From IMG/VR virus record IMGVR_UViG_3300042923_001406: DNA of 64,000 nt. The stretch is one strand, 5' to 3'. A program made the position numbers and the translations under genes. The notes under the pieces are model-generated. The model did no database searches. It was not told the origin of the DNA and saw only the letters and a list, made by a program, of their open reading frames with translations. Origin of the DNA: an uncultured virus (IMG/VR IMGVR_UViG_3300042923_001406). Taxonomy: Duplodnaviria; Heunggongvirae; Uroviricota; Caudoviricetes. Positions 7,041-53,426 of this stretch are shown piece by piece (the stretch's first letter is position 1; each line of letters begins with the position of its first letter).

Positions 7041-8378
7041 ATGTTAAGACTTAATTTAGACCAAAGACCACCATCAATTCAAGAAAGAGTTGATATAATG
7101 CGAAAACACATATCTAAAGGTGGTGTACCAGTAGATTATGATAGACTAGTTGAATATTTAACACACTTTAGAGTTGAGATGTTTGAAACAGGTTCTAAAT
7201 TATTATCTTTAATGAAGTCTAAAGATCCCTATTTTACATCTAATTCTATTAAGAAATGGACTAAAGAAAATAATATAAAAGTTGGATTTAACTTAACAGA
7301 AACAGGTAATGTATCTTATAATGCTGAATCATTAGATAGTTTTATAAACACTAATTATTATGGTGAGGAAATTACCAATATAGTTAAAATTTTAAAATTA
7401 TATAACTTCTATACAGCACAAATTTCTTTATTACCTGGTATACTCGATCAATACCAACCATCAGGGTTAGAATCAGAAGATGGAAGAAGATTAGTTCTTA
7501 TAAAGCCTGGGATAGAAGCACAAAATACAGGTAGATTTGGTATAGTAAATCCAGCTTTAATGAATTTACCACGTATCATGAAAGATATTTATGTAGCACC
7601 TAAAGGTTGGACTTTAATGTCAGCAGATTCAGGTCAAATTGAACCTAAATTTATATATGGATTTTATATGCCTGACAGACAAATACAAAAACTTATATTA
7701 CTCTATGGAGATGCTTATTATGCTATATTGCATTATTGTAGAATGCCTATAGAGGATATAAGAAATATGAGAATGGATTTTGAAGCTATAGAAATAACAC
7801 CAGAATTAAAAGAATTAAGACAGAAATTAAAAACATATGGAAATGGTGTTATGTATGGTTCTACGTATAATCCTGAAAAAGATAAATTAAAAGAACAATA
7901 TATACAAAGAATCGGTCAACATCCTCTAAGAATAGAATGGCAAAAGAAACTTGAAATTAAATTAAATCAAGGTCAAAGAATATTTCCTTCTTTATTTGGT
8001 ACTCCAGTAGATATTTATAAATCTGAAAAATTTATAAAAGCTAAAACAGATAAGGATAAACAATTGGCTTTAATACATTGTATGATAAATAATCCTATAC
8101 AAGCAACTGCAGGGGATTGCATGGGATTTTCTTTACAAGCCTCAGATTATTTATTAAGTAAGAAAGCTCCAAATAGTTGGATTACTAAATATGTTCATGA
8201 TGAAGGACAATATTGTATTCATAACTCAGAAAAAGATTATGTATTGGAGGAATTATCAGGACATACATCATATAATGTAGAAGATATAGTTCTAATATAT
8301 AATGAGCCTAAATTTGGAAGGGAATTTAATAAAGATATACCAATATCATATGAACATCTATTCTCGGAGGCAGTTTAA
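7041..8378 (+). CDS. polA: family A DNA polymerase, polymerase domain only
   Basis: NTGRFG..NPALMNLP, motif A SADSGQIEPK, motif B RQKLKTYGNGVMYG, NNPIQATAGD and motif C YVHDEG. Confidence 0.9.
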   Translation: MLRLNLDQRPPSIQERVDIMRKHISKGGVPVDYDRLVEYLTHFRVEMFETGSKLLSLMKSKDPYFTSNSIKKWTKENNIKVGFNLTETGNVSYNAESLDSFINTNYYGEEITNIVKILKLYNFYTAQISLLPGILDQYQPSGLESEDGRRLVLIKPGIEAQNTGRFGIVNPALMNLPRIMKDIYVAPKGWTLMSADSGQIEPKFIYGFYMPDRQIQKLILLYGDAYYAILHYCRMPIEDIRNMRMDFEAIEITPELKELRQKLKTYGNGVMYGSTYNPEKDKLKEQYIQRIGQHPLRIEWQKKLEIKLNQGQRIFPSLFGTPVDIYKSEKFIKAKTDKDKQLALIHCMINNPIQATAGDCMGFSLQASDYLLSKKAPNSWITKYVHDEGQYCIHNSEKDYVLEELSGHTSYNVEDIVLIYNEPKFGREFNKDIPISYEHLFSEAV

Positions 8379-31062: not shown

Positions 31063-31614
31063 ATGATTAAACCTGAAATAACTGTATTTGCTGGACCAAA
31101 TGGTTCTGGTAAGAGTACATTAACAAATATATACAAACCAAAATATAAATATATAAATGCAGACGAAATTCAAAAGACTTTAAATTGTAGTAATATAGAT
31201 GCTGCAATAATGGCAACAAGAATGAGAGAAGAATGTTTAAATAATAATGAAGATTTTTGTTTTGAAACTGTGTTATCAACAGAAAGAAATTTAAATTTAC
31301 TAAAAGAAGCAAAATTAAAAGGATATTTTATAAAATGTTTTTTCGTTGTAACTGTAAGTGAAGAAATTAACGTACAAAGAGTTAAATATAGAGTATCTAC
31401 TGGAGGACATGATGTTCCAGAAGATAAGATAAAAGATAGATATAAAAAATCAATAAGTATGATAAGAGAATTATATAAAATATGTGATATATTACAAATA
31501 TATGATAATTCAGGAGATAGTATTATACGTATATTTAAAAAGCGTAAAGAGATATATTATACTTATGATAATTGTTTTTGGTCTTATGAAGATACTTTAA
31601 ATTTAATAATATAA
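31063..31614 (+). CDS. zeta-toxin/AAA_33-like P-loop ATPase
   Basis: AGPNGSGKST, INADEI, FETVLS, RV..GGHDVP...I..RY and YDNS. Confidence 0.85.
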   Translation: MIKPEITVFAGPNGSGKSTLTNIYKPKYKYINADEIQKTLNCSNIDAAIMATRMREECLNNNEDFCFETVLSTERNLNLLKEAKLKGYFIKCFFVVTVSEEINVQRVKYRVSTGGHDVPEDKIKDRYKKSISMIRELYKICDILQIYDNSGDSIIRIFKKRKEIYYTYDNCFWSYEDTLNLII

Positions 31615-33921: not shown

Positions 33922-34734
33922 ATGGAAATAGATTTAAGAGCTTTACAAATGATGGTTGAAGAAGAGAATTCAGTTGAAACTACAAGGAATATATTAAATA
34001 AAGCAGTTGAATTCTTTTCTAGACATAAAGATAATAAATGGAAAGTAGAAAGTATTTTCAAAGATTTAAGAGGTACTGTATTTAATTTTGATGATTTAGA
34101 TGAAAAGGATTTATTCTTTTGTGATTTAGATGAAATAAAAGTATTTGATATTCCTGATGAATTTAAGACTTATTCACTAGGATTATTTGCAGATGAAAGA
34201 GTATGTAGATATGCTTATAGATTAGTTTATCCTGTAAGAGATGTAAAAGGAAATGTAATGGGTTTATGTGGTTGGGACCCTGGAGACCAACCTAAATATT
34301 TAGATTCAAAAACATATGGATATAATGCTAAAAGAAACTGTTTATATGGGATGGAAAAATTAGAAGAATACTACAAATCCAATAAACCAGTATTTATAGT
34401 AGAAGGTATAGTTTGTTGTAATTATTTACGTTCTAAAGGATTTCAAGCACTAGCATTACTAGGTTCTTCTATATCTACATATGTAATAGAAATATTAAGA
34501 AGATTTGGTAAAAGACTAGTATTAATACCAGATAATGATACAGCAGGTTTATCTATTTTAAAACGTTCTTTTTATAATTTACCTGATTCAAAATGTTATG
34601 TATCTTTAGTAGCTAAAGATATTGATGATACTAGAAAAAAAGATGATGGTATATATGAATTACAATTATTAAGTGAGTTAAGTAATATACAGAATACTTT
34701 CTGTTTTACAAATATATTAAGTATGGTTAAATAA
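33922..34734 (+). CDS. DnaG-like primase (catalytic/Toprim core only)
   Basis: RLVYPVRD..G.VMG..G, PKYLDS, IVEG and PDNDTAG; no zinc-binding domain. Confidence 0.85.
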   Translation: MEIDLRALQMMVEEENSVETTRNILNKAVEFFSRHKDNKWKVESIFKDLRGTVFNFDDLDEKDLFFCDLDEIKVFDIPDEFKTYSLGLFADERVCRYAYRLVYPVRDVKGNVMGLCGWDPGDQPKYLDSKTYGYNAKRNCLYGMEKLEEYYKSNKPVFIVEGIVCCNYLRSKGFQALALLGSSISTYVIEILRRFGKRLVLIPDNDTAGLSILKRSFYNLPDSKCYVSLVAKDIDDTRKKDDGIYELQLLSELSNIQNTFCFTNILSMVK

Positions 34735-37209: not shown

Positions 37210-38427
37210 ATGGCAATTAAGATTACATCAACAAGAGAAGCAGTAAAGGTACAAGCTAGTCAGAGAAGTAAACAAGTATTAGGTAAAAAAGTTTTAGAAC
37301 TTGGAAAAGAATACGCTTTGTTATTTCCTAAAAAAGGTAATGAAGTAGTAGTATCTGGTATTGTAGGTCGTAACACAAATTATGATGCATTAGCTATTTC
37401 ATTTGGTAGAATAATGGAAAATCAAATGGATATTAATGAAGAAACAGGAAGAATAAAAGACAAATCAGGAATGGATAGATGGGCAGCTTTATCATCAATT
37501 TTATATAAAGCCTCAGAAGCAAAAGAAATAAAAGAAAAAGAAGAAGAAGCTAAGAGTTTAGCTGAGAAAACTGGATCTTCTATAGATGAAAGAGCATTAG
37601 AACAAGCTATAGAAAAAGTAAGAGAAGCTTATAATGGAAAGAAGAAACAGGGAGATGAAAAAGAAGTATTACCTACTAAACAAAGACTTGTTGGTAGTAG
37701 AGTAGATTTTAGTATATTTACTGAAGCACTTCTTATTCCTCTTAATAAAGAGTTAAAACCTGAATTTGAAAAAGCAGTTGGAGTTGAAGTTAAATTATCA
37801 ATTGCAAAACAAAGACAAATAAATGCTATTCTTGATAATCCTGTATATCATGATGTTAATGACCCAGACGGTTTCTTAGAAATTAAATTTTCTTACATTG
37901 GAAAAGATACAAAAGAAGCTGGTCAGAATAAATACCAAGGCGTTGAACCTGCTGTACGTAAAGTAAATCTTGAAAAAGATGCAGATGGAAAATATAAAGA
38001 CACAGGTGTAGAATCAATAACACATTTACTTAATGATGTATCACATGACAGTGAATTAATGTTCAATAGAGCTGGAACAGTTTCATTTGCTAATACTTCT
38101 GCAGACGTTGAAGCTGCTATGAGAAAATTCTTAGCTAATAATAGAATGTTACCATTGTACATTGATTTTGAAGATGAGATGACAATAAGACATGCTAAAG
38201 ATATTATTGAATTAGGTTGTGTATTTAAACCTGATACAAGACAATACAAAGAATTATTAGCTATCGTAGAAGAGCAGAAAGACGCTATAGACAAATTAGA
38301 AGATGATTCTATAACAGGGGATATAGCAGAAGTGGCTAAATCTAAATCAACTAAAGAAGTAGTTGATAAAGTAGATTCAAATGAAGAATTAAAGAATATG
38401 GTTGAAGATGAAGTTGAAGACATCTAA
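37210..38427 (+). CDS. probably highly expressed protein with an acidic C-terminal tail (candidate SSB or recombination protein)
   Basis: GGAGG RBS; more C-ending codons than its neighbours; tail MVEDEVEDI; precedes the SbcCD-like genes. Function is inference. Confidence 0.5.
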   Translation: MAIKITSTREAVKVQASQRSKQVLGKKVLELGKEYALLFPKKGNEVVVSGIVGRNTNYDALAISFGRIMENQMDINEETGRIKDKSGMDRWAALSSILYKASEAKEIKEKEEEAKSLAEKTGSSIDERALEQAIEKVREAYNGKKKQGDEKEVLPTKQRLVGSRVDFSIFTEALLIPLNKELKPEFEKAVGVEVKLSIAKQRQINAILDNPVYHDVNDPDGFLEIKFSYIGKDTKEAGQNKYQGVEPAVRKVNLEKDADGKYKDTGVESITHLLNDVSHDSELMFNRAGTVSFANTSADVEAAMRKFLANNRMLPLYIDFEDEMTIRHAKDIIELGCVFKPDTRQYKELLAIVEEQKDAIDKLEDDSITGDIAEVAKSKSTKEVVDKVDSNEELKNMVEDEVEDI

Positions 38428-38452
38428 ATAATAAAATATAATAAAATTCATT

Positions 38453-38480
38453 CTACCTATGGGGATACTCTCATAGGTAG
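38453..38480 (+). terminator. stem-loop after the 405 aa gene
   Basis: CTACCTATGGGG...TCTCATAGGTAG with G-U pairs. Confidence 0.55.
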
Positions 38481-38510
38481 GTGTATTATATCTTTAAGAG
38501 GTAAATTATA

Positions 38511-39380
38511 ATGAAAGTTGAATTAACTAACATACAGTCTATTAAACATGCAGTTTATGAGATAGAAGAAAAAGGAGTAACTCAAATAATAGGAGAGAAT
38601 TCTAATGGAAAATCTATTTTTATAAAAGCCTGTTCTTTTATTGCAAATAATAAAATAAAAGATGAAGATAAAAGAGATTCTATAATAAATGACGACGTTA
38701 CACATGGTATAATAACTATGGAAAGAGAAGGAGTAACATTAAAAGCAACTATATATAGAGAATCTACTAATTGTGTATATGAATTAAAAAGAAAAGATGG
38801 AACATTAATAAGACGTACTATAAGAGAAGGAGGCTTGGAAGAGCTAACTGAAGAATTCGGATGGATAGCATTCGACGGAAATATTTGTTTGCAAATATTT
38901 GAAACATTTGGTATAATGCCATTTGTAAATAATAGAGAAAGCAGTGACTATGAAATTGTAGATTATATAATAACAGATAGAGTAGCTAATGATTTTGTAG
39001 AAAACTATAGTAAAGTAACACATCCTGCTTTCAAAGATTACTTAGCTAAAGTAAAGTCTAAAGCAGAAGAAGCACAAAGAATATTAGATAAAATAACTTT
39101 TTATCCTATAGATAAATATGAAGATATTTTATTTAAATTAAAAAAATATCAAAGAAATGTTCAACATTTAAAAATTGTAAATCCAATAAAGTTACCTATA
39201 ACTAAACATTTTAATTATGTTCCAATAGAACCTATTAAATTAAATAGGATGCCTATATACAAAATAGCACCTGATTGTCCTAATATGGTATCTTTAATAT
39301 CATATATAAAAGATTATTCAGAAGCTTTAAATGGTTTCTGTCCTACTTGTCACACTAAGTTTAAAGAAATGGAGAATTAA
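38511..39380 (+). CDS. SbcC/Rad50-like ATPase, N-terminal half ending at the zinc hook
   Basis: VELTNIQS, Walker A GENSNGKS, a short coiled coil and terminal CPTC. Confidence 0.8.
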   Translation: MKVELTNIQSIKHAVYEIEEKGVTQIIGENSNGKSIFIKACSFIANNKIKDEDKRDSIINDDVTHGIITMEREGVTLKATIYRESTNCVYELKRKDGTLIRRTIREGGLEELTEEFGWIAFDGNICLQIFETFGIMPFVNNRESSDYEIVDYIITDRVANDFVENYSKVTHPAFKDYLAKVKSKAEEAQRILDKITFYPIDKYEDILFKLKKYQRNVQHLKIVNPIKLPITKHFNYVPIEPIKLNRMPIYKIAPDCPNMVSLISYIKDYSEALNGFCPTCHTKFKEMEN

Positions 39381-39381
39381 T

Positions 39382-40455
39382 ATGATTTGGAAAATAGCCG
39401 TAGCAGGTGATTTACATAAAAGAGTTAAAGATATATCTACTATAAAAGGATATGTTAATTGTTGTGATTATACATTAGAAAGTTTAATAAAAATGATAAA
39501 AGAAGAACAATTAAATGCTTTTATAAGTTTAGGTGATTGGTATGATAAAGGTTATGTAGATGATGTAGCAGCAGCTATAGCTGACGTATCAAGAGAACAT
39601 TACATTCATGAATTATTAAACGGTAATTTTTATGGTGTAATAGGAAATCATATAAGATTAAGATTAGATTCAAATCCTGAACTAATGCTTATGCAACCAC
39701 ATCCTACATTAAAAAGTAGAAAAGAAGTTAGAAGAGAACATCAGATAATAAAAACACCTAATCAAATAAGGGTTGGAAATATTCAAATATCATTAGTACA
39801 TAATTTACAACAAGCTAATAAATTAGAAGATTATATTATAAGAAGATTACCAGATGTAAAATATCATATAGCTTGTGTTCATGATCCAAGATTTGTACCA
39901 TTAAGTAAACTAGCACTAACAAATACATATGCACATAATACTTTAGATTCTGAAATAGTAAGAACATTAAGTGAAGTTGATTTATGTATATGTGGTGATA
40001 TACATATGCCATTAGGATTATTTGATATATCGCCTAAAACAAAAATGATCGTTCCTGGAAGTTTAACTAATACTAATGCTAGTTTAAAAACAAGACACAG
40101 TTCAATAAAAATACCTATATTAACTATAGATGATAAAACTGATGAATTTTCATTAAATTTTAAAGATTTTGATTTAAATTTAAATATGTTAACATTTGAT
40201 GAAAAAGCAGAAGAAAAAATAATAGATAAAATAAAAACTCTAAGAGGTAATTCATTAGATAAATTATATAATGAAGAAAATACAGGTAGTATTATGTCTA
40301 CAGGTATATCTTCTTTTAATTTTAGAGAATTTTTAGATGAACAAGATTATACGCCTAATGATAGAAAATTAATTAAATCAGTTATGAAAATTCCAGAAGA
40401 TATAATGTCACTTATAAAGATTCATTATGAAGATTTACAAATAATAGAAGAATAA
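39382..40455 (+). CDS. SbcD/Mre11-like metallophosphoesterase nuclease
   Basis: GDLH, LGDWYD, GNH, H, GDIH and PGS; start moved to the ATG after GGAG. Confidence 0.85.
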   Translation: MIWKIAVAGDLHKRVKDISTIKGYVNCCDYTLESLIKMIKEEQLNAFISLGDWYDKGYVDDVAAAIADVSREHYIHELLNGNFYGVIGNHIRLRLDSNPELMLMQPHPTLKSRKEVRREHQIIKTPNQIRVGNIQISLVHNLQQANKLEDYIIRRLPDVKYHIACVHDPRFVPLSKLALTNTYAHNTLDSEIVRTLSEVDLCICGDIHMPLGLFDISPKTKMIVPGSLTNTNASLKTRHSSIKIPILTIDDKTDEFSLNFKDFDLNLNMLTFDEKAEEKIIDKIKTLRGNSLDKLYNEENTGSIMSTGISSFNFREFLDEQDYTPNDRKLIKSVMKIPEDIMSLIKIHYEDLQIIEE

Positions 40456-40468
40456 TAGGAGATTAATT

Positions 40469-40783
40469 ATGAGTAAAAATTTAGTTAATACTATGAGAGA
40501 AGTTCTTATAGAGGCTCGTACTAAAGAAGAACAAAAAATAGATGATTTCGCAAAGGCATTAACATCAGTTAATATAGAAGAAGTATTTGGAGATACTTAT
40601 ATACCTCCAATTATATCATTAAAATCATTATGTCCAGAAGCTTATGAAAATGAACCTAATTATATTAAATATGAAGAGCAATACAATAAAATGGTAGAAA
40701 TTTTTACTAACATAAATAATAAGATTATAGCATATAATGAGGAGGCACTAGAATGCCTGCAACAATACAAAATGATATCTTAA
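40469..40783 (+). CDS. hypothetical helical protein in the SbcCD-like operon
   Basis: AGGAG RBS. Confidence 0.7.
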   Translation: MSKNLVNTMREVLIEARTKEEQKIDDFAKALTSVNIEEVFGDTYIPPIISLKSLCPEAYENEPNYIKYEEQYNKMVEIFTNINNKIIAYNEEALECLQQYKMIS

Positions 40784-41793
40784 TTCCAGCTATATTAAAA
40801 CATTTAAAAAGTAAAAAATCAATGCCGATTAATTTTAAATTTGTTAATAATAGAATAGATATACAATCATCAGAAGAATATATAATAGATACAGTAATTA
40901 ATGGTACATATTCACATGATATGGAGGGTTCTTGTTTTTCAGCTTTAATAACTGATTCTATAGTGTTATTACAGAATAACTTAAATCAAGAAACTAAAAT
41001 AATAAAAGAAAACGATGAAATAGTTTTATTTATGCAGGATAATATTACTCTGCCTTATTCTATATCACATGATACAAGAATAAATATAAGTAGTGATAAT
41101 ATACAAAATAATGGACAAATAAATTCAAATATAATAGATAATATTATTAGTGGATTTAGATTATCTATTAATACATCTAAAATATTAGAAGTAGGAGTAC
41201 CATCTGTTATAATATCTAATGGAAGAGTATATTGTTTATATTCAAACACTATGATTATAAATGATACTTCTTTATTATTTTCTGATATAGAAATACCTTA
41301 TAATACTTTTAATAATATAAATAAGAATATAGATAAAGGAAATATAGATTTATTAACTGACAATGATAAGAAATTATTAATATTGAAATCTAGAAATAGT
41401 ATAATAACTTGTAATTATAAAATACCAAATTTAGATTTAATTAATAGTATCAATAATTTAATAAATAGTTTTAGTGAGTATGGTACATTTAGATTATTTT
41501 CATTAAATAATCTAGAATTAATAAGTAAATTCTTCCCTAAAGAATCACTAACTATATCTTTTTATAAGGATTATACTATTGGTATTAATATTACCATATC
41601 AGATGGTAAATCTATAAAGATAGGAACAAAGAATATTGATTCTATTTTTAATATAATATTAAGTACAACACAGTTTGATGTATTATATAAATTATTTAAA
41701 GATTATAATACAATAGAAGTTTTTAAAGGAAGTGATACTCTATGTTTAAAGAACAACAACAAAATTTTAATTCTATCGGGAATGATCTTTTAA
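40753..41793 (+). CDS. hypothetical protein, possible sliding clamp (DnaN/PCNA-like)
   Basis: 346 aa with a repeating beta-rich/helix pattern, in a replication-repair operon; the fold call is inference. Confidence 0.35.
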   Translation: MPATIQNDILIPAILKHLKSKKSMPINFKFVNNRIDIQSSEEYIIDTVINGTYSHDMEGSCFSALITDSIVLLQNNLNQETKIIKENDEIVLFMQDNITLPYSISHDTRINISSDNIQNNGQINSNIIDNIISGFRLSINTSKILEVGVPSVIISNGRVYCLYSNTMIINDTSLLFSDIEIPYNTFNNINKNIDKGNIDLLTDNDKKLLILKSRNSIITCNYKIPNLDLINSINNLINSFSEYGTFRLFSLNNLELISKFFPKESLTISFYKDYTIGINITISDGKSIKIGTKNIDSIFNIILSTTQFDVLYKLFKDYNTIEVFKGSDTLCLKNNNKILILSGMIF

Positions 41794-42392
41794 TTTCAAT
41801 AGCACAATGTGAAGAAAGAATAAGAATATCTAAACAAAATGAAATAAAATATAATGAGGCTAAGAAACAAAAAGAAAGTGCTGATACTTTATGTGATATG
41901 GTAAGGACAACAGCTAATCACATGAATAAAGTTTATAAGAATGTAAAATATTTTTTAGAAAATAAAAAGACTACTTCTAAAGATATTTTAGAAAGTGCTA
42001 TACATAATGTATCAGAAATAGTGCAAGATTCAGATTTAACTACTTGTAAAATAATACATGATAATGGTAAGACTAAAATATTAAATATAAAAGGTCAAAA
42101 TATAAATGAACGTGAAGGTTCTGCAGCAAGAGCTGTAATGGGGTTATTATTAAAATATACTTGTATAAAAGCAATGCCTAATAAAATACAATTAATGTTA
42201 TTGGATGAAGCAGCAGCAACATTGTCTTCTAGTACTTCTGTAAATTTTAGAGAGGTAATAGATTTACTTTCTAATGATATAGGTATAGTAGGTATAGAAC
42301 AAAAAGATATTTTATATAGTGGTTTATCTAAAAAGAAATATGTAGCTGAAAAATTAGATAAAGTATCAACTATAAGAGAGGAGGCTATATGA
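41742..42392 (+). CDS. SbcC/Rad50-like ATPase, C-terminal half
   Basis: Coiled coil, divergent signature EGSAAR and Walker B LMLLDEAAATLS. Confidence 0.7.
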   Translation: MFKEQQQNFNSIGNDLLISIAQCEERIRISKQNEIKYNEAKKQKESADTLCDMVRTTANHMNKVYKNVKYFLENKKTTSKDILESAIHNVSEIVQDSDLTTCKIIHDNGKTKILNIKGQNINEREGSAARAVMGLLLKYTCIKAMPNKIQLMLLDEAAATLSSSTSVNFREVIDLLSNDIGIVGIEQKDILYSGLSKKKYVAEKLDKVSTIREEAI

Positions 42393-43279
42393 TTAAAAAA
42401 GAAGAAATAAACATTAATAAAACATATCTTTTAAAAGATGTAATAGGTACTAGATATCTTATACCAACACATAATAAATCAATGGATGATTTTTTCAATA
42501 TATGTAAAAGTTTATTTGAAGAAACGGGTAATAAAATTAAAGTAGATATAGCCTTCTGTAAATTTAATCCTGACAATTACACTAGAATAGACAATTATAT
42601 AGATTTTATAGACTTTACTGATTCAGATAATCCTGCTATATCAGGGATGTTAGAACATAATAAAAATGTAAATAAGTATAAATTACTAGAAAGAAATAAT
42701 ACTATAAAATTTGAAGATATACCAAAGGAAATAAATATTGAATCTTTAAAATCATTTTTAAGTAGTATAGATATAGATAATCCAAATCCAAGTATAATTT
42801 ATAGAATACCAACTATTAATGAAATGAATGGTAAAAAACCAGATATTGCTATATTATTAGCAATGATGATAGTAATAATGAATCCTAAAATTAAAATAGA
42901 TTTAACTAATCAATCAGAGCAATTTTTCGATATATTTAAAACATTTTGGAGATATACGGGTAAAGTTAATAGAGATTCCTATTTAATAAAATGGGATTAT
43001 AATTATATGAAAATAGGAGCAAGTTTTAATGATACTGATGAAAACTGTTACTATTTTTATATTCCAGGAGTAGGAGAAATAAGTGAAAAAGAATTAAATG
43101 AAAACTTTAAAGTTATACCCTTTATTTTTGGAGATGTAAAATTTTCAGAATTAAAGAAAGATCCTGAATTAAATAATATTTATAAAGATATACAAGAAAG
43201 ATTAATATATGAAATAAAAAGAAATAAAGTAAAAAAGAAAAAATTAATTTCTGAATTATCATTTAATAAAAAGGAGTAA
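42389..43279 (+). CDS. hypothetical protein
   Basis: ATGA overlap; GAGG RBS. Confidence 0.7.
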   Translation: MIKKEEININKTYLLKDVIGTRYLIPTHNKSMDDFFNICKSLFEETGNKIKVDIAFCKFNPDNYTRIDNYIDFIDFTDSDNPAISGMLEHNKNVNKYKLLERNNTIKFEDIPKEINIESLKSFLSSIDIDNPNPSIIYRIPTINEMNGKKPDIAILLAMMIVIMNPKIKIDLTNQSEQFFDIFKTFWRYTGKVNRDSYLIKWDYNYMKIGASFNDTDENCYYFYIPGVGEISEKELNENFKVIPFIFGDVKFSELKKDPELNNIYKDIQERLIYEIKRNKVKKKKLISELSFNKKE

Positions 43280-43283
43280 AGTT

Positions 43284-45299
43284 ATGTCAGATATACCAAA
43301 GAAGATTAAGGATGGCGTTTCTATAATATGTGCACAAACAGGCATACATTTAACAGATGAACAAAAAGAAGTTTCTTATAGATTTAATGATAGCATGTCT
43401 GTATTCGCCAATCCTGGAACTGGTAAGACAACTACAGCAGTTAATGGGCTTATTACAGCTCAAACATTATATGGAATAAAAGGAAAACAAATAAATGCAA
43501 TGTCATTCACTAAACTTGCGACTGCGGAATTATCTGCAAGATATAAAGCTGCTTGTAGAAAATGTAATATAGTTGCTAATGTACAATTTAATACATTCCA
43601 TTCCATTTGTTATAAAATAATAAGAAAAGCATACCCTAATTTTACTATTAGAGATGATAGAAGAATTGAAAATGAGTTAAAAGATTTTAAACAATTTTTA
43701 AAAGAAGAAAATGTTGAAAAGTATGATGATATGTTTTTCGTAAAGAAAGTTTATCAAGCAATGAATTCATTAAATGGAGAGTTATTATTTTCTAAAAACG
43801 CAGTAGAAAATTCTTCTAAATTTATAAGAATAAGTGAAAATATATCATTAAAACAATTTCAAATGGCTAGAGCAAGATGGTTTAAGAGAAATTTTGTAGT
43901 TCAGTCTATAATAAGAGGAGATATACCTACAATGGTATTGTTTATTCTTTTAATAAATCCAAATTTAGCAGAAGAATTTAAGAAAGAATATGAATTAATG
44001 GTAGTAGATGAGTTTCAAGATATGTCTATACTATACTTAGAAATATTAGCTTTAATAAGTAATAGATTAATAGTAATAGGAGATTTGAAACAGCAAATAT
44101 ATGGATTTAATGGAGCTTCTTTATTAATATTAGATGCATACAAAAATATATATCCTGATGCTCCTGTATTAGAACTTAATCAATCTTTTAGATGTAAGAA
44201 TGAAATAGTTGAGTTAGCTAATAGAATAATATCACCTAATGAAATACAAGGATTTGAAAATTTTAAAGGGATTGGTGAAGGTGGTTCCATAGAAATATTA
44301 AAAAATTCTGATACTATATTTAATAATATAATAGATGAATTAAAGAAAAAACAAGATAAAAAAGAATATTCAGATGTTATGTTTGCATCGAGAAATAATG
44401 CTTCAGTAGTTCCTATAATAGAAAAATTATATAGAGAAGGAATAGTTTTTAGAACAACTAAGTTTTCTAAATTAATGGATTTACCTATGTTTAGAGAAAT
44501 ATGCAATATGGCTGATGTAGCTTTAAATTCTACTAATCCAGACTATGTAGCCAAAGTTAATTTATTTATTCCTGAATTTAAATGGATGAGGGCAACAGAA
44601 AATCCACTATTAGAAGTAATGTCAATATCTAAAAGACAAAGTGATAAAGATTTATTAACTATGAATTATGCTTATAATTTAGATTCATCATATACTATAT
44701 TAAATAAATTACGTAGATTTGTTACATTAAATAAAGAACAAAAACAACCATTTTCTGTTTCAATGATGCCATTGCTAGAGATATACGAAGAATTTGTAAT
44801 AGAAGGTAATTGGTGGAAAATAGATCAACCTAAAGAATATTACATTAATTTAGTGTCTTCTATAATATGTGATAAAACATATGAAGAAATGGTATATGAT
44901 GAAAATGATAAATTTAATAAAAATGAATATTATAGTTCTATGAATGAAGGAATAAGGTGTTACACTTTTCACTCGGCTAAGGGATTAGAAGCATCTAAAG
45001 TATTTTTATTAGATGTAGATGATATGATTATTCCTAAGGATTCAAGTATAGAAGATTTATTAAATGATGGTTGTTCATTAGAAGCAGCAAAAGAAATAAG
45101 AAATGAAAGGAATCTTCTTTATGTTGCAATAACTAGATGTAAAAATGACTTAACAATAGTATATAATGAATCAATATCAAAATTAGTATCTGTACCAGAA
45201 CAAAATGGATATACATTCTTAGATAAAGTATGGAAAGATAAAGCTGTTTTATTAAATGAAAATAAAGCCTTTAAGAAATTAATGGGGGTAAAAGAATAA
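43284..45299 (+). CDS. UvrD/PcrA/Rep SF1 helicase
   Basis: ANPGTGKT, VDEFQD, GD.KQQIYGFNGA, SFRC, TFHSAKGLE and LYVAITR. Confidence 0.95.
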   Translation: MSDIPKKIKDGVSIICAQTGIHLTDEQKEVSYRFNDSMSVFANPGTGKTTTAVNGLITAQTLYGIKGKQINAMSFTKLATAELSARYKAACRKCNIVANVQFNTFHSICYKIIRKAYPNFTIRDDRRIENELKDFKQFLKEENVEKYDDMFFVKKVYQAMNSLNGELLFSKNAVENSSKFIRISENISLKQFQMARARWFKRNFVVQSIIRGDIPTMVLFILLINPNLAEEFKKEYELMVVDEFQDMSILYLEILALISNRLIVIGDLKQQIYGFNGASLLILDAYKNIYPDAPVLELNQSFRCKNEIVELANRIISPNEIQGFENFKGIGEGGSIEILKNSDTIFNNIIDELKKKQDKKEYSDVMFASRNNASVVPIIEKLYREGIVFRTTKFSKLMDLPMFREICNMADVALNSTNPDYVAKVNLFIPEFKWMRATENPLLEVMSISKRQSDKDLLTMNYAYNLDSSYTILNKLRRFVTLNKEQKQPFSVSMMPLLEIYEEFVIEGNWWKIDQPKEYYINLVSSIICDKTYEEMVYDENDKFNKNEYYSSMNEGIRCYTFHSAKGLEASKVFLLDVDDMIIPKDSSIEDLLNDGCSLEAAKEIRNERNLLYVAITRCKNDLTIVYNESISKLVSVPEQNGYTFLDKVWKDKAVLLNENKAFKKLMGVKE

Positions 45300-47107: not shown

Positions 47108-47533
47108 ATGTTTGGATTATTTAAATCTAACTCAAATTCTTCTTTAATATTTATAGGTAATTTTAAATCTAATCAAAAAGATTTTTTAGAAAGAGCTGAT
47201 GAGGCATACTTATTAACTTTTAAACAGATGGATATGTCTTATTTTGCTAAATTTGCTTCTAGAAATTTATATATGATGATTTATAGAAGTTTAACATCAG
47301 AACGTTCATGGGTAGGTGTATCTAATAAATTTAAGAAAGTTACTTGGACTATGATAGAACAAGACAAAGAAGGTAGCTTCCTAGCATCTAAAGATACAAT
47401 ATTTGATAAAGTTAATGTTAGTAGACAACTTAAATTATCAGTAGCAGATGATTACAGAGAACTTTGGGGAGTTATTAAAAGTATAGATGGTAATTATACT
47501 GTAGAAAGAATAAGTGAGGTAGTTGAATGTTGA
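47108..47533 (+). CDS. hypothetical protein, possibly Tim44/NTF2-like fold
   Basis: FLERA..AY and a YRELW...Y.V.RI C-terminal pattern. Confidence 0.45.
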   Translation: MFGLFKSNSNSSLIFIGNFKSNQKDFLERADEAYLLTFKQMDMSYFAKFASRNLYMMIYRSLTSERSWVGVSNKFKKVTWTMIEQDKEGSFLASKDTIFDKVNVSRQLKLSVADDYRELWGVIKSIDGNYTVERISEVVEC

Positions 47534-48027
47534 GTTTAAAAGAAGAAAGTGTTAGAATATCCAGAAGCTTACAGGATACATATGCTGAAAGTAAAAAGTT
47601 ATTAACTAAATTAGAAGATGAAATAATTATAACATCTAAAGAGTTTAAAGCAGCATCAGAAGAGGGAGATCATAGAGAAAATGCAGCTTATACAACAGCA
47701 CAAGAAGATTTAGCAAACTTAAATAAGAGAAAAATAAATCTTTTAAGATTATTGGATGATATAGAACAATTAAAATCTGACTCAACATATGTTCCTAAAT
47801 CTTTTATTGGATTATATAGTACATTTAGATTATTAAGAGAAGATACAGAAGAAATAAGTACATGGAAGGTATTTCCTGGTTTAATTTCAGATACTGATAG
47901 AGGTATAATGTCAGATGAAGCACCTATATTTAAATTATTGAAAGATAAACAAGCGGGAGATATAATAGAACAGACACATAAAATAAGTGGAAAGACTATA
48001 AACTTTAGAATATTAGAAGTTTATTAA
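47527..48027 (+). CDS. greA: GreA/GreB-family transcription elongation factor
   Basis: A.EEGDHRENAAY..A coiled-coil tip; GIMS.EAPI...L..K.AGD and FRILEV. Confidence 0.85.
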   Translation: MLSLKEESVRISRSLQDTYAESKKLLTKLEDEIIITSKEFKAASEEGDHRENAAYTTAQEDLANLNKRKINLLRLLDDIEQLKSDSTYVPKSFIGLYSTFRLLREDTEEISTWKVFPGLISDTDRGIMSDEAPIFKLLKDKQAGDIIEQTHKISGKTINFRILEVY

Positions 48028-48041
48028 GAAAGGATAGAGAC

Positions 48042-50039
48042 ATGATAATTGCAACTAAAACGGTAGATTCTTTATTAAAAGGATTAGTAAATTCTGATTC
48101 ATTAATGATTTCAAGATTAGAATCTATAATGTCATCAATACAATTAGATCCAAATATATCACAACCAAAAAAGGAAATGTATATATTATCTTCAGACGAT
48201 ATAAAAACTCCTAACAGTAGAAAATTATTTATAGAATCATTAGATAGTAAACATCAAAATTCTATTATAATGTTTATAAATAAAACTAATAAAGAAATAA
48301 AAGAGTTAAATACTAATATATTTGATTCTTATCTTGTTAAACCTAGTAAGGATAATGTAAAACAAAAATTATTAGAACTAGTACAAGAGTCTGAAAATAA
48401 AACTAAATTTAAACAATCAGAAATAAAAGAAGAAGATAACTTTTCTATAAAAAATATGGTAGGAGAAATTAAGAAAGAAGACATAAAAGAAGATAACATT
48501 CAAGAAGTATCTATTACTTTAGACTTACCAAAAGAAGAAAAGGTTGAAGAAGTAAATGATACTGGTTATAATGATCTATTAAGTAGAATACAAAGAACAG
48601 AAAATTGGGCATCATTAACAACTATAGTATCAGAAGTTTCAGCTTCAAGAATAGTACAGGAAATAACTAAAGCAAATGCTTCATTTAGACAATCTGAAAA
48701 TTATATATCATCATTATATGAAAATATAGATGCTATATTATCTAATCCAACCTATAGTATAGAAACACAATTATCTAAGGTACGTGCTATATTACATGAT
48801 AAAGCACATATAAAAGCTAAAACTAATTCTATAGTTGAACAAGAAGTTGAAAAGATAATAAAAGTTATAATAGATAAATCAAAAGAAGAAGTAGAAAGAA
48901 AAACAAAAGATTTAGATGAAAAAATAGCTTATGCTATAAGAAATAAATCAACAGCAGAAGCAGATAATGTAAGATTATCTACTATAATTGAAGAAAGAGC
49001 TAAAATATTAATTGAATTAAATGCTTTAGATTTAGAAATAAAAGGATTATCTACAATCTGTAATAATACTATAAATGATACAGTAGATAATACATTATCA
49101 GAAAGTACAAATTCTACAAAATCTCCAATATTAGATTCTCAATTATCAGCTAGATATGGGACTATAGTACCAGATAATATATTAGATATATTAGATAACT
49201 TATTTTCAATAGGTGCAGAATCAAATAAAGAATTTGGTGAAATGTCAAATGCTGTAGGTTCAACTATAAGAAAATTATATAGTTTATTATCTTTATATCA
49301 AGAAGAAAATGAAGTTTTAGCAAATACTATAAGATATTTAAGAGCTAATAATGTAGAAGACACTGTATTAGCTAATACTATTTTAAAGAAGACAAGTAGA
49401 TTATTTATATCTTCTAATAATTTTGATAGTATTACATTATCTTATATGATATCTAAACATAATTCTAGAAAGAATAATAATGTTTTATTAGTAGATCTAA
49501 CTAATACAGATGTATTAGATTTATTTGGAATAGATAAAATAAAATATTCATATTTTATGGAAAGAGAAATGATTGAAGATAAATTTAAAGTTATATCAGT
49601 ATATGGTGATGAAGGTGTTGAAGTTAAAACATTTGAAGATTATCAAAGATTATCAACAAAATTATTACAATATGCAAAACACTATTCAATGATTAATATT
49701 ATTTGTTTACCAGAACAAAAAGAATTAATAGAATCTATGAAAGAAGATGTTTTATCTATTACATATTTAGTAGATTGTTATCCAGTAAGTATAAATGAAA
49801 TGAAAGATTGTATAATTAAATCTAAAGTAGATAATACAGCTTATAAGGTTATACTAGTTAATTATATGAATAATTCATCATCTATTTGTAAACAATTAAA
49901 CATATTAGATAGATTAGATATTCAATTAGCTATGTGTGATCCTATAAAAGAAATAAGATATTGTTCTTTGTTTAAACAAGATCCTTATAATGTAGAATCT
50001 ATAATAGAAGATTGTGTAGGTGTCTTTAAAATATGTTAA
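48042..50039 (+). CDS. coiled-coil protein with a degenerate C-terminal MinD/ParA-like domain (TadZ/CpaE-like architecture)
   Basis: Long coiled coil; NVLLVDL and KVILVNY with no intact Walker A; overlaps the secretion ATPase gene. Confidence 0.45.
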   Translation: MIIATKTVDSLLKGLVNSDSLMISRLESIMSSIQLDPNISQPKKEMYILSSDDIKTPNSRKLFIESLDSKHQNSIIMFINKTNKEIKELNTNIFDSYLVKPSKDNVKQKLLELVQESENKTKFKQSEIKEEDNFSIKNMVGEIKKEDIKEDNIQEVSITLDLPKEEKVEEVNDTGYNDLLSRIQRTENWASLTTIVSEVSASRIVQEITKANASFRQSENYISSLYENIDAILSNPTYSIETQLSKVRAILHDKAHIKAKTNSIVEQEVEKIIKVIIDKSKEEVERKTKDLDEKIAYAIRNKSTAEADNVRLSTIIEERAKILIELNALDLEIKGLSTICNNTINDTVDNTLSESTNSTKSPILDSQLSARYGTIVPDNILDILDNLFSIGAESNKEFGEMSNAVGSTIRKLYSLLSLYQEENEVLANTIRYLRANNVEDTVLANTILKKTSRLFISSNNFDSITLSYMISKHNSRKNNNVLLVDLTNTDVLDLFGIDKIKYSYFMEREMIEDKFKVISVYGDEGVEVKTFEDYQRLSTKLLQYAKHYSMINIICLPEQKELIESMKEDVLSITYLVDCYPVSINEMKDCIIKSKVDNTAYKVILVNYMNNSSSICKQLNILDRLDIQLAMCDPIKEIRYCSLFKQDPYNVESIIEDCVGVFKIC

Positions 50040-51412
50040 ACTTAAATGGAATATTAGAAATTCAAACTATCAATGCAATTAACAATATAGTAACAACAAG
50101 ATTTAAGGATAGTTCAATTTTTAAAACACCTGAGAGCTTAATACTTTACGAACAAAATTACTTAGATAAAGATAAGTTGTTACTACTGTGTAATGAGGTA
50201 TATGAAGAAAGACTTGAAGAGCCTATAGCAACTTATATACCTAAAGATATTGTAAACTTATTCAAACATACAAATGCAGTTCCAATAAGATATATAGCAT
50301 CTAAAAGAGAAGTAAGTGTTTTATATATACCAGAATATTCTATAATAAAACCAACTACAACCTTATATGATATAATCTACATTCCAACTACACTACATTA
50401 TTTTATTTTAAATTATACAAGATATTATGGTAATTTTAAAGAATTATTAGAAATATCAGGAAAATTAGCTTTAAATATGATAATAGAAGAAGCTATAAAT
50501 TTGGATGTACCAGATTTAACTATAACTAATCAAGAAGAACAAGTTATAGTTTATTATAATTATAAAAAAGAAAAATTAATGGCTAATAATATTTTTCCAA
50601 GATATATAATGGATGAAATTATAAAAGTTTTTACTATAGGAACACCTATTTCTGACTTAAGTGATAATAAAGCTAAATATGTGGGTTATGATATAGATGA
50701 AGAATATAGGGCAAGAGTAGTAATAAATAAAAATTATTATGGTCATGTAATAACAATAAGATTATTTCCACAATCTTTATTTAATAAAAAATTAGAAGAT
50801 TTAAATATTAATAAAGATTTGATAAATTTCTTAAGAGATAAAAATATACAAAATAGTAATGGATTAAGAGTCATAGTTGGTGCAACTATGAGTGGTAAAA
50901 ATACTACAGCTTTAGCTATTTTAAAAGAAATAGTTGATAATGGTAAAAGTAAAGTAGTATCTATAGAAATGCCTGTAGAACAGAGGTTGTTAGGTGTTGA
51001 ACAAATAGATACAGAAGTTATAGAAGAATATAAATCAAATATAGAATCATTAATACATCAAAACCCAGATTTTGTATATATAACAGAAACTAAAGATGAA
51101 ACTGGACCTTCAGTTATGAGGATAGCTAACACTGGTAAAAAAGTATTAACAACATTACATAGTAATTCTGTTTCAGATACAATATCAAGGTTAATAGATA
51201 TAACACAATTATCAAGTAATAGAATAATACAAGTATTACACTCTATTATATATCAAGAATTAGTTAAGATTGATGATGAAATATATCCTATAAATAAATT
51301 TGTATATTTTGATGATGATTTTAAAAATGAATTATATGATAAATCTTTTGGTGAAATAATAAAATTAATTAAAAATAGAGAAAAAGGAGGATTAAAAGAT
51401 GAATTACTTTAA
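50033..51412 (+). CDS. PilB/GspE/VirB11-family secretion ATPase
   Basis: GATMSGKNTT, SIEMPVE, QNPDFVYITETKD and TG..VLTTLH.NS. Confidence 0.9.
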   Translation: MLNLNGILEIQTINAINNIVTTRFKDSSIFKTPESLILYEQNYLDKDKLLLLCNEVYEERLEEPIATYIPKDIVNLFKHTNAVPIRYIASKREVSVLYIPEYSIIKPTTTLYDIIYIPTTLHYFILNYTRYYGNFKELLEISGKLALNMIIEEAINLDVPDLTITNQEEQVIVYYNYKKEKLMANNIFPRYIMDEIIKVFTIGTPISDLSDNKAKYVGYDIDEEYRARVVINKNYYGHVITIRLFPQSLFNKKLEDLNINKDLINFLRDKNIQNSNGLRVIVGATMSGKNTTALAILKEIVDNGKSKVVSIEMPVEQRLLGVEQIDTEVIEEYKSNIESLIHQNPDFVYITETKDETGPSVMRIANTGKKVLTTLHSNSVSDTISRLIDITQLSSNRIIQVLHSIIYQELVKIDDEIYPINKFVYFDDDFKNELYDKSFGEIIKLIKNREKGGLKDELL

Positions 51413-52292: not shown

Positions 52293-53426
52293 ATGATGAA
52301 AGTAAAAGGTATAACAATTGATAACGGAGGTTCTGAATTAAGGTATATTTCTTCAGAAAACTCAGAAGAGGTAATTGCATGTGAAAAGAATATATCAATA
52401 TTGGATAGAGGTACATTTAGAATAAAAGATAACTTAGAAGAACTAGATATAGTAGATATAGTAGAATCTACTAATGATGGTTATGAGGGTATGTATGCCA
52501 CAGGATATGGTTACTATTTATATGATGGTATAGATATGGCATTAAATACTCAAACTAAGAAAACAAGTAATCATGCATGGTATAAACAAGTGTTAGTTAC
52601 AATAGCAAAAGATGCTATGAAATATAAATTATTAAAATTAGAGGAAGGTAACTATGAAGCTAATCTAATAGATTTAGATTATGCAGTTATAACTTTAATA
52701 CCAGCTAAAGAACATTCTGGATCTGAAGATTTCGTGTCTAAATTAAAGAAAGATTTATGTGGTACATATACTGCAGAATTTCCTGTAATAACAAAAGGGT
52801 GTAATTTAGTTACATTTAATATATCAGAAGAAAATATTGGTGTTCTACCAGAAGGAGTAATAGCTATAACTTCTTTAAATAAAGAAGATTTAACAGATGA
52901 AACATATAGCCTTATTATTGATATGGGACATGTGACTACTGACATCGCTATATTTAAAGGTACAAGAATGATAGGTAATACTGTTAAATCTTTACCTGAA
53001 GCTGGTGGTACATTAATGAATCTTATAGAGGGAGTTTTAGAAGACAATGGTTGTATAAGCACTGATGAATCAAAAATAAAAGCATTCACAACTTATAAAG
53101 CTACTCTAAAGAAAAAAGAGATAGATTTATCAAAAGATATAGAGAGAACAAAAGATTTATTCATTGTTAATTATATCAAAGATGATATAATAAAAATAAT
53201 AGGCTTAGCTGGAATTTCATCAAATGTAATACAGAATTTCATACCTATTGGTGGAGTTTTAGGTGTTAAAAATCCTAATACAGAAAATTATGATTTAATA
53301 GATAAAATTGTTGAAGAATGTAATTTAATAAATGCAGAAGTGCAAATATTAGATGAAGATTTAAGACATGTCAATATTAATAAAGCACATAATTACTGTA
53401 CTAATATGTTAAGAAAGATGGGATAA
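52293..53426 (+). CDS. ParM/StbA actin-like partition ATPase
   Basis: IDNGGSELR, LPEG, IDMGHVTTD and IGG actin-fold motifs. Confidence 0.85.
   Translation: MMKVKGITIDNGGSELRYISSENSEEVIACEKNISILDRGTFRIKDNLEELDIVDIVESTNDGYEGMYATGYGYYLYDGIDMALNTQTKKTSNHAWYKQVLVTIAKDAMKYKLLKLEEGNYEANLIDLDYAVITLIPAKEHSGSEDFVSKLKKDLCGTYTAEFPVITKGCNLVTFNISEENIGVLPEGVIAITSLNKEDLTDETYSLIIDMGHVTTDIAIFKGTRMIGNTVKSLPEAGGTLMNLIEGVLEDNGCISTDESKIKAFTTYKATLKKKEIDLSKDIERTKDLFIVNYIKDDIIKIIGLAGISSNVIQNFIPIGGVLGVKNPNTENYDLIDKIVEECNLINAEVQILDEDLRHVNINKAHNYCTNMLRKMG

What the first reader, a model, noticed from the sequence alone, without database searches (positions are those of the whole stretch)
38511..42392. Rad50/SbcC split at the zinc hook into two genes, with Mre11 and two extra genes nested between the halves
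Seen: gene 1 has Walker A and a short coil and ends right after CPTC. Gene 5 has a coil, a divergent ABC signature (EGSAAR) and Walker B (LLDEAAATLS), with Gln at the H-loop position. Between them lie an Mre11-like nuclease (GDIH for GHxH), a 104 aa helical protein and a 346 aa possible clamp. Both halves are intact ORFs separated by ~2.4 kb of other genes, so this is not a simple frameshift. Known: SbcC/Rad50/gp46 are normally one chain whose coil folds back at the hook. Inference: a heteromeric, short-armed SMC-like nuclease complex, possibly clamp-coupled.
Basis: partly seen in the sequence, partly recalled or inferred. Interest (0 to 1): 0.75.

Follow-up and report, generated by a model that had tools for sequence, protein, structure and literature searches.

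The report
Split Rad50 wrapped around a clamp
On a large plasmid-like element, the DNA-repair motor Rad50 is encoded as two separate, conserved genes cut just after its zinc-hook motif, with a nuclease, a small helical protein and a predicted sliding clamp between them; the halves likely reassemble into a DNA-end-processing machine whose arm is built unlike the textbook one.

Summary
The N-half has a Rad50-type lobe and ends in CxxC (173 of 183 homologues). None of the 183 is fused to a C-half. The order N-half, nuclease, small protein, clamp, C-half holds in 27 of 27 loci that reach the C-half. dN/dS is at most 0.17 for both halves. The 346-aa protein folds as a beta sliding clamp.

Only about 60 residues of N-half helix can pair with the fixed-length C-half. 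The hook sits on a proline-rich tether that grows in 19-residue steps. The signature Ser, D-loop Asp and H-loop His are all replaced across the family.

Best reading (about 0.7): a two-chain gp46/Rad50-like ATPase works with the Mre11-like nuclease in recombination and replication of a 141-kb element that encodes its own RNA polymerase. Clamp docking is unsupported (about 0.2).

The scan has found split Rad50 before on other DNA (42 notes, at least 37 genomes). Bacillus phage 0305phi8-36 has a related split, half-noticed in PMC3175470. My searches found no paper that describes the split. Verdict: new variant of a known kind.

The parts
37210..38427 (+). Conserved 405-aa protein of unknown family, upstream of the N-half gene
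   Evidence: Nearest of the seven profiled genes upstream of the N-half in 47 of 47 loci; other genes intervene in L031-L034. No Pfam, PHROG, NCBIfam or PDB match.
38452..38481 (+). Terminator-like hairpin between the 405-aa gene and the N-half gene
   Evidence: 13-pair stem; hairpins of unrelated sequence at the same place in most distinct intergenic regions folded. Function inferred only.
38511..39380 (+). Rad50/SbcC-type N-half: lobe I (Walker A, Q-loop), helix 157-217, Pro-rich 19-aa-repeat tether, short helix, terminal CxxC
   Evidence: AlphaFold model; Foldseek best hit P. furiosus Rad50; hhalign to T4 gp46 95%, E 2e-8; tether lengths and periodicity.
39382..40455 (+). Mre11/SbcD-like calcineurin-type nuclease (likely start 39382; longest ORF from 39331)
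   Evidence: Pfam Metallophos E 2.8e-11; six metal-site positions invariant in 22 of 22, motif V GHIH 17 / GDIH 5. The Mre11 assignment rests on context; no PDB profile hit at E 0.01.
40469..40783 (+). Conserved 104-aa helix-loop-helix protein of unknown family; candidate accessory or third piece of the arm
   Evidence: Present in all 26 complete loci; tandem-doubled in L012 and L045; no significant PDB match; no similarity to T4 gp46 or to 0305phi8-36 gp7.
40753..41793 (+). Divergent three-domain beta (DnaN-type) sliding clamp, predicted
   Evidence: AlphaFold pLDDT 87.5; Foldseek E 9e-14, TM about 0.7 to bacterial beta clamps; ESM Atlas TM 0.77-0.81.
41742..42392 (+). Rad50/SbcC-type C-half: about 85-residue helix and lobe II with altered signature, Walker B DE, altered D-loop and H-loop
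   Evidence: Best PDB profile hit is an SMC head, E 0.0055; Atlas neighbours SMC_N and SbcC_Walker_B; motif tallies in 72 sequences; register against T4 gp46 and 0305phi8-36 gp5.
42389..43279 (+). Conserved 296-aa protein of unknown family, after the C-half gene
   Evidence: Follows the C-half in 25 of 26 loci; the remaining locus ends inside the C-half. No family assignment.
43284..45299 (+). UvrD/PcrA-like SF1 helicase, same gene run
   Evidence: Pfam UvrD-helicase E 6e-31; follows the 296-aa gene in relatives that reach that far.

Best explanation
The two genes encode the two complementary halves of a Rad50/gp46-type ABC ATPase that likely assemble in trans and likely act with the neighbouring Mre11-like nuclease on DNA ends and hairpins during recombination and replication of a large self-replicating element. 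Shown: the N-chain carries lobe I (Walker A, Q-loop), a fixed 60-61-residue helical stretch, a proline-rich tether of variable 19-residue repeats and a terminal CxxC; the C-chain carries a fixed-length helix and lobe II; both are under purifying selection and were never found fused. Inferred: the N-chain helix and the C-chain helix zip into a short antiparallel coil that rebuilds the head; two such pairs plus a nuclease dimer form an N2C2M2 complex; the two terminal CxxC motifs share a zinc ion at the end of tethers that have no descending coil partner. Inferred more weakly: ATP is bound normally but turned over by altered chemistry or slowly, because the signature Ser, D-loop Asp and H-loop His are replaced while Walker A Lys and Walker B Asp-Glu are kept. 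The clamp gene is most likely a co-expressed replication gene.
For: The N-half folds like the Rad50 N-lobe and aligns to T4 gp46 residues 5-163. The C-half matches SMC/SbcC C-lobes. The halves are complementary: 0 of 72 C-halves have a Walker A or CxxC, and 0 of 183 N-halves match the C-half profile. Order N, nuclease, small, clamp, C in 26 of 26 loci with the C-half in view out of 47, plus L055, across N-halves 20-70% identical to the window's. dN/dS is 0.017-0.17 for the N-half (13 of 14 pairs measurable) and 0-0.057 for the C-half (7 of 9). Among seven genes in 18 loci, the N-half/C-half divergence correlation is the highest (0.87; weak, since all share ancestry). The neighbourhood is replicative: clamp, UvrD, primase, clamp loader, PolA, DnaB. 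The cultured phage 0305phi8-36 has the same kind of split. PMC7824862 (passages) calls SbcC/SbcD practically universal in jumbo phages and part of their core recombination apparatus.
Against: Three canonical ABC catalytic elements are lost across the family. The signature Ser position is R 32, T 24, V 8 and others of 72; the D-loop Asp is S 60 or N 11; the H-loop His is Q 68 and H 3. Normal ATP hydrolysis is therefore not assured. C-half similarity to known heads is weak in sequence (E 0.0055; no significant hhalign to T4 gp46). The window nuclease has Asp for the first His of motif V, and the nuclease profile hits no solved Mre11/SbcD at E 0.01. The AlphaFold model of the N-half alone is only moderately confident (pTM 0.44, residues 123-154 poor). 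Many loci are near-identical strains, so the independent lineages number about 18, not 27.
Confidence: 0.7

Rival explanations
1. Three-piece Rad50: the 104-aa protein is a structural third chain that fills in for the missing descending arm or caps the end of the short coil. This extends the best explanation and does not exclude it.
For: It lies between nuclease and clamp in 26 of 26 complete loci. Against T4 gp46, the C-half lacks about 60 residues between hook and signature (122 against 182), and the small protein has about 70 helical-pattern residues. 0305phi8-36 has a 92-aa coiled protein (gp7) in the same slot. Earlier scan notes proposed this for other clades (lead only).
Against: The facing N-half stretch (218-261) is proline-rich and modelled as non-helical, so it cannot form an ordinary coil. 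Small-protein length does not track tether length: it is doubled in L012 and L045 but single in L011, L013 and L021, which have long tethers. No similarity to gp46 or gp7. It is among the least conserved genes of the run (20% mean identity).
Confidence: 0.4
2. Clamp-coupled nuclease: the element's beta clamp docks on the complex and tethers or stimulates it at forks or DNA ends.
For: The clamp gene directly precedes the C-half gene in 26 of 26 loci, with overlapping or nearly abutting frames. Precedent: P. furiosus PCNA binds the Mre11 C-terminus and stimulates resection (PMC6009593, abstract). An [RKN]GxxxxxL patch in the nuclease linker (12 of 22 by eye) is a candidate site.
Against: QLxLF-like motifs occur in only 1 of 40 N-halves, 2 of 22 nucleases and 1 of 20 small proteins; the 5 of 17 C-half hits are the Walker B strand. 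T4 gene 45 (clamp) sits two small genes from gene 46, so adjacency is ordinary. The 0305phi8-36 split cluster has no clamp-like gene between the halves. The element has its own clamp loader and PolA, which explain the clamp.
Confidence: 0.2
3. ATP-binding but hydrolysis-dead scaffold: the halves assemble and hold the nuclease or bridge DNA ends, without a Rad50-like ATPase cycle.
For: Signature Ser, D-loop Asp and H-loop His are all replaced.
Against: Walker B Asp-Glu is invariant in 72 of 72; Walker A Lys is in 181 of 183 (two gaps). New near-invariant residues sit at the same loops (E125 71 of 72, G126 72 of 72, E186 71 of 72), which points to rewired rather than lost chemistry.
Confidence: 0.15
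4. Anti-phage or anti-competitor defence system of the ABC-ATPase plus nuclease type.
For: Many defence systems pair an ABC/SMC ATPase with a nuclease (own knowledge). The N-half has weak PADLOC hits (E 4e-5 at best).
Against: Most of those hits cover only the Walker A region; the other six proteins have none. The cluster is a fixed core of the element among replication genes and not a variable island.
Confidence: 0.06
5. Decayed or mis-assembled single gene.
For: Only the prior that Rad50/SbcC is a single chain.
Against: Independent contigs confirm the junctions; there are three intact genes between the halves; selection is purifying; no fused relative appears among 183 proteins.
Confidence: 0.01

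Closest known systems
Phage T4 gp46/gp47 and cellular Mre11-Rad50 / SbcCD
   Same: Rad50-type N-lobe, CPTC hook motif at the same distance from Walker A (249 against 252 residues), Walker B, a calcineurin-like nuclease partner, and a clamp gene nearby.
   Different: Two chains and not one; the hook is C-terminal on a proline-rich repeat tether and not at a coil apex; FSEGE becomes xREGS, the D-loop Asp becomes Ser/Asn, the H-loop His becomes Gln; nuclease, small protein and clamp genes lie between the halves.
Bacillus phage 0305phi8-36 gp8 / gp7 / gp5 (NC_009760; gp8 = A7KV18)
   Same: Best BFVD fold hit. gp8 ends its Rad50 part at CPTC near the C-terminus; gp5 is a separate 236-aa C-half with a Ser-ending D-loop; a small coiled protein lies between. 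PMC3175470 (section 6 read) noted that one P-loop NTPase segment is missing from this protein, without naming a separate C-half in that section.
   Different: There the nuclease is fused to the N-half, the arm to the hook is long (382 residues) and helical in pattern, signature Ser and H-loop His are kept, and no clamp-like gene is nested. Sequence similarity is remote (hhalign 93% over 63 columns for the N-half, 12% for the C-half).
P. furiosus PCNA with Mre11-Rad50 (PMC6009593, abstract and outline seen)
   Same: Precedent that a sliding clamp can bind and stimulate an Mre11-Rad50 nuclease.
   Different: Single-chain Rad50, a PCNA-type clamp and a defined PIP-like motif; none of these is shown here.
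Bacterial DnaN beta clamp
   Same: Three-domain clamp fold over the whole 346 residues, TM about 0.7; a DnaX-like loader lies at window 58943.
   Different: 7-14% identity; no Pfam match; it works beside a family A polymerase on a mobile element (inferred).

Membership tests
Rad50/SbcC/gp46 | SMC-type ABC N-lobe with Walker A and Q-loop | tested here: met
   Foldseek to Rad50 heads; G-N-x-x-G-K-S columns 96-99% conserved and Q/N at the Q-loop in 169 of 183.
Rad50/SbcC/gp46 | C-lobe with Walker B Asp-Glu | tested here: met
   DE in 72 of 72, on a separate gene; SMC and SbcC_Walker_B neighbours.
Rad50/SbcC/gp46 | Signature motif with Ser (LSGG / FSEGE) | tested here: not met
   Three MAFFT modes put R124 at the Ser of T4 FSEGE and of gp5 DSRGG; that column is R 32, T 24, V 8 and others of 72. 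The HMM register puts the invariant Gly there; neither register gives a conserved Ser.
Rad50/SbcC/gp46 | D-loop Asp and H-loop His | tested here: not met
   S 60, N 11, G 1; and Q 68, H 3, one gap, of 72.
Rad50/SbcC/gp46 | Single chain whose antiparallel coil folds back at a central CxxC hook | tested here: not met
   CxxC lies within 35 residues of the C-terminus in 173 of 173 proteins that have it; no fused form among 183.
Rad50/SbcC/gp46 | CxxC hook motif binding zinc between two chains | tested here: inconclusive
   The motif is conserved (CPTC 120 of 173); zinc binding and pairing cannot be tested here. 73 of 173 tails have two or more further Cys/His, which might complete an intrachain site.
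Rad50/SbcC/gp46 | Linked Mre11/SbcD nuclease | tested here: met
   A calcineurin-like nuclease follows the N-half in every locus long enough to show it.
Rad50/SbcC/gp46 | ATP-dependent double-strand exonuclease and hairpin cleavage | not testable with these tools
   Needs purified proteins.
Mre11/SbcD | Five phosphoesterase motifs of the two-metal site | tested here: met
   D27, H29, D69, N106, H107, H179 and H225 are invariant in 22 of 22; position 223 is H 17, D 5.
Mre11/SbcD | C-terminal helix-loop-helix that binds the Rad50 coil | tested here: inconclusive
   A conserved helical-pattern tail follows a variable linker; it was not folded, and there is no PDB profile hit. The role of that element in Mre11 is recalled.
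SMC (condensin, Wadjet) | Hinge domain and kleisin/KITE partners | tested here: not met
   No hinge sequence in either half and no kleisin-family hit among the neighbours. The 405-, 104- and 296-aa proteins remain unassigned.
DnaN beta clamp | Three-domain clamp fold | tested here: met
DnaN beta clamp | Head-to-tail dimer ring loaded on DNA | not tested
   No dimer model was made; a loader gene is present.
ABC-ATPase defence systems (Gabija, Septu, PARIS, Lamassu) | Full-length match of the ATPase and the cognate effector | tested here: not met
   Only weak, mostly Walker A-region hits for the N-half; none for the other six proteins.

The most novel reading that the evidence does not exclude
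A five-protein DNA-end machine of a new build: a two-chain Rad50 head with rewired ATP chemistry (no signature Ser, D-loop Asp or H-loop His), a zinc hook hung on an extensible proline-rich tether in place of a coiled-coil apex, a small helical third chain, and the element's own beta clamp docked as a processivity factor.
Probability: 0.15. Interest if true: 0.85.

Novelty: new variant of a known kind. Interest (0 to 1): 0.6.

Why it matters
In current models of Mre11-Rad50, a continuous intrachain coiled coil carries signals between the zinc hook and the ATPase head (PMC13402864, passages, describes hook, head and coil-relayed coupling). A family that keeps head and hook but breaks the chain at the hook, and joins them by a repeat tether of variable length, is a natural test of whether that continuity is needed. 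The proteins are small (289 + 216 + 357 aa), so they suit reconstitution and cryo-EM. The family-wide replacement of three ABC catalytic elements asks how an SMC-type head can cycle without them. It also shows that annotation misses such C-halves and clamps: neither has a meaningful Pfam, PHROG or NCBIfam hit. The biological role is probably ordinary, and split Rad50 has turned up often in this scan.

Tried and rejected
The VIA-align search of the N-half model was not available.

Fused relatives: none among 7,997 scored candidates of 593-2000 aa (weak evidence by the tool's own note). None among the best 150 listed of 1,003 profile hits (the other 853 were not seen). The four longest hits (446-491 aa) are N-halves with longer helical arms that end in CxxC.

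Named phage and plasmid collections: only a weak hit to the single-chain SbcC of Lactobacillus phage 3-521 and none in plasmids. IMG/VR scans: nothing, one locus; could not run.

Promoter scan: fewer sites than in shuffles (58 against 77.8), so uninformative. Clamp-binding motif scan negative. The 405- and 296-aa proteins stay unassigned (the designed-LRR hits cover a short stretch of about 26-34 profile positions and were rejected). No RNA holder listed. Residue covariation between halves was not attempted, as there are only about 18 distinct pairs.

Literature: ten searches; those aimed at a split Rad50/SbcC were 35, 60, 78, 106, 111 and 123, and none listed a paper describing one encoded as two genes. 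Passages read in PMC5105663, PMC7824862, PMC12153180, PMC2147016, PMC13402864 and bioRxiv 10.64898/2026.07.21.739742 do not describe it. Krishnan et al. 2020 (NAR 48:10045, ABC ATPase classification) and PMC4583041 are not held. The first, and its supplements, could already list this clade.
Full report
Observation. The five genes are present as described. They are tightly packed: the nuclease likely starts one base after the N-half stop, the small gene overlaps the clamp gene by 31 bases, and the clamp gene overlaps the C-half gene by 52. Each has a purine-rich stretch before its ATG. Contigs of run X4, from a different study, confirm the N-half stop and the clamp/C-half junction. The more distant run X5 keeps the order but carries 1,109 extra bases between the nuclease and small genes.

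The N-half. The AlphaFold model (36 sequences, pLDDT 75.7, pTM 0.44) shows a beta-rich lobe to about residue 120, a poorly modelled Q-loop region, helices at 143-217, an extended stretch at 218-261, a helix at 262-273 and CPTC. Foldseek ranks Rad50 and SMC heads first. The profile aligns to T4 gp46 residues 5-163 at 95%. Two searches gave 183 distinct homologues. Of these, 173 have a CxxC past residue 180, always within 35 residues of the C-terminus; the other 10 are 134-273 aa and look like fragments. None matches the C-half profile at E 10. Only the best 150 of 1,003 profile hits were listed. The helical stretch is fixed at 60-61 residues (162 of 166 measured). The distance from there to CxxC peaks at 60 and 79, with smaller groups near 98 and 117. 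The tether is 11% proline against 2% elsewhere, and its autocorrelation peaks at lags 19 and 3 (164 sequences).

The C-half. There are 56 homologues of 189-240 aa, 72 with those from loci. The signature Glu sits at residue 124-127 in 61 of 72, so this chain does not lengthen when the tether does. The best PDB profile hit is an SMC head at E 0.0055, and Atlas neighbours are SMC_N and SbcC_Walker_B clusters. Walker B Asp-Glu is invariant. Three alignment modes align EREGS with T4 FSEGE and with DSRGG of 0305phi8-36 gp5, which makes the Ser column R, T, V, I or L. The D-loop Asp is Ser or Asn. The H-loop His is Gln in 68 of 72, after a near-invariant Glu. The exact signature register is not settled without a structure, but neither register tested gives a conserved Ser.

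Arm arithmetic. Walker A to CxxC is 249 residues here and 252 in T4 gp46. From the C-half start to the signature is 122 residues, against 182 from hook to signature in T4. About 60 residues of descending arm are absent, and the part of the N-half that they would face is the proline-rich tether. I infer a short head-proximal coil formed between two chains, and a hook at the end of an unpaired or self-paired tether.

Gene order and selection. Of 47 loci (window plus 46), 26 reach the C-half, and all 26 have the order N-half, nuclease, small, clamp, C-half. The gap is 2.2-8.5 kb because unrelated genes insert mostly after the N-half. The halves never share a frame. The other 21 end before the C-half. 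The one IMG/VR locus agrees. Many loci are near-identical strains; about 18 are distinct. Pairwise dN/dS, on stop-to-stop frames and non-independent pairs that do not include the window, is 0.017-0.17 for the N-half, 0-0.057 for the C-half, 0.008-0.049 for the nuclease and 0-0.17 for the clamp. It is below 0.1 for the small protein in 8 of 11 measurable pairs; the three L002 pairs have few changes and give 0.15-0.79.

The genes between. The 346-aa protein has no sequence match but folds as a three-domain beta clamp. The nuclease keeps the two-metal motifs; the window's GDIH is a minority form. The 104-aa protein is a conserved helix-loop-helix with no known relative. Nothing but gene order ties the clamp to the complex, and T4 also has its clamp gene close to gene 46.

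The element. The window lies in a 141-kb record classed as a virus, linear, 81% complete. It encodes RNA polymerase beta and beta-prime, two PolA-like proteins, DnaB, a clamp loader, an FtsK-like ATPase, an actin-like partition protein, a pilus-type ATPase and an S-layer protein. No capsid or portal family was hit among 141 proteins scanned, and Terminase_6N is absent. The FtsK-like protein has a weaker second hit to a PHROG labelled terminase. It looks like a giant plasmid-like element, but the record is incomplete. In 3 of 3 genome bins the split genes share a contig with a second beta-prime; the 85%-complete viral record G004 showed none. Related contigs reach 150-350 kb, some labelled human gut metagenome, and three sit in Lachnospiraceae or Endomicrobiellum bins (binning unverified).

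Known relatives. The best viral fold hit is A7KV18 of Bacillus phage 0305phi8-36. PMC3175470 (section 6 and passages) lists it as an Mre11/Rad50 fusion that lacks one P-loop NTPase segment. In the record, gp8 ends at CPTC and gp5 is a separate C-half, with a 92-aa coiled protein and one further gene between. A hook-split Rad50 therefore exists in a cultured phage. Its arm is also lopsided: 382 residues up, 120 down, 212 with gp7. PMC2147016 (passages) has no occurrence of Rad50, SbcC or Mre11 in the main text. My searches found no description of the split; Krishnan et al. 2020 could not be read.

Earlier scan notes. The scan already holds 42 notes in at least 37 genomes on split Rad50; none showed up as a look-alike of this sequence, and none held clamp, UvrD and plasmid words together. 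They gave me the three-piece idea, kept here as a rival, and are not counted as support.

Verdict. This works like gp46/gp47 or Mre11-Rad50 (about 0.7), but it fails the single-chain and catalytic-motif tests for plain membership. It is a new variant of a known kind. What is particular to this clade is the repeat tether, the triple motif change and the nested clamp. Interest 0.6.

Noticed in passing
window 38452-38481 and the same gap in L002-L047: A strong hairpin of unrelated sequence sits between the 405-aa gene and the N-half gene in most loci; it may be a leaky terminator that steps expression down.
   Followed up: partly
window 33922-34734 and G000 89773-90249: Primase appears split: a TOPRIM part here and a CHC2 zinc-finger part about 56 kb away.
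   Followed up: no
G000 120462-121571 and 131430-132221: NAD-dependent ligase appears in two pieces that match different parts of one PHROG profile; split replication genes may be a habit of this element.
   Followed up: no
G000 109692-118587: Own RNA polymerase beta and beta-prime genes; already noted by earlier findings. A second beta-prime lies on the same contig as the split genes in 3 of 3 genome bins.
   Followed up: partly
window 37210-38427 and 42389-43279: Two conserved unknown proteins flank the cluster in nearly all loci, under purifying selection, with no family match.
   Followed up: partly
L012:12718-13398 and L045:13103-13834: The small helical protein is tandemly doubled in two lineages.
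   Followed up: no
window 7041-8378 and G000 127300-130629: Two family A polymerase-like genes (445 and 1109 aa) on one element.
   Followed up: no
window 47527-51412 and 52293-53426: GreA-like factor, a 665-aa unknown, a pilus/secretion-type ATPase and an actin-like partition protein follow the helicase; the first two recur in relatives.
   Followed up: no
G000 121555-122411 and window 31063-31614: A nucleotidyltransferase-HEPN gene pair (likely a bacterial toxin-antitoxin pair) and a zeta-toxin-family ATPase.
   Followed up: no
proteins P0179-P0182, P0115, P0122, P0131: Distant N-halves of 384-491 aa in which the tether is longer and partly or wholly helical in pattern, still ending in CxxC; they look like intermediates between this clade and long-armed split forms.
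   Followed up: partly
all of G000: 142 of 143 non-overlapping ORFs of 90 aa or more lie on one strand, with positive GC skew throughout the window.
   Followed up: no
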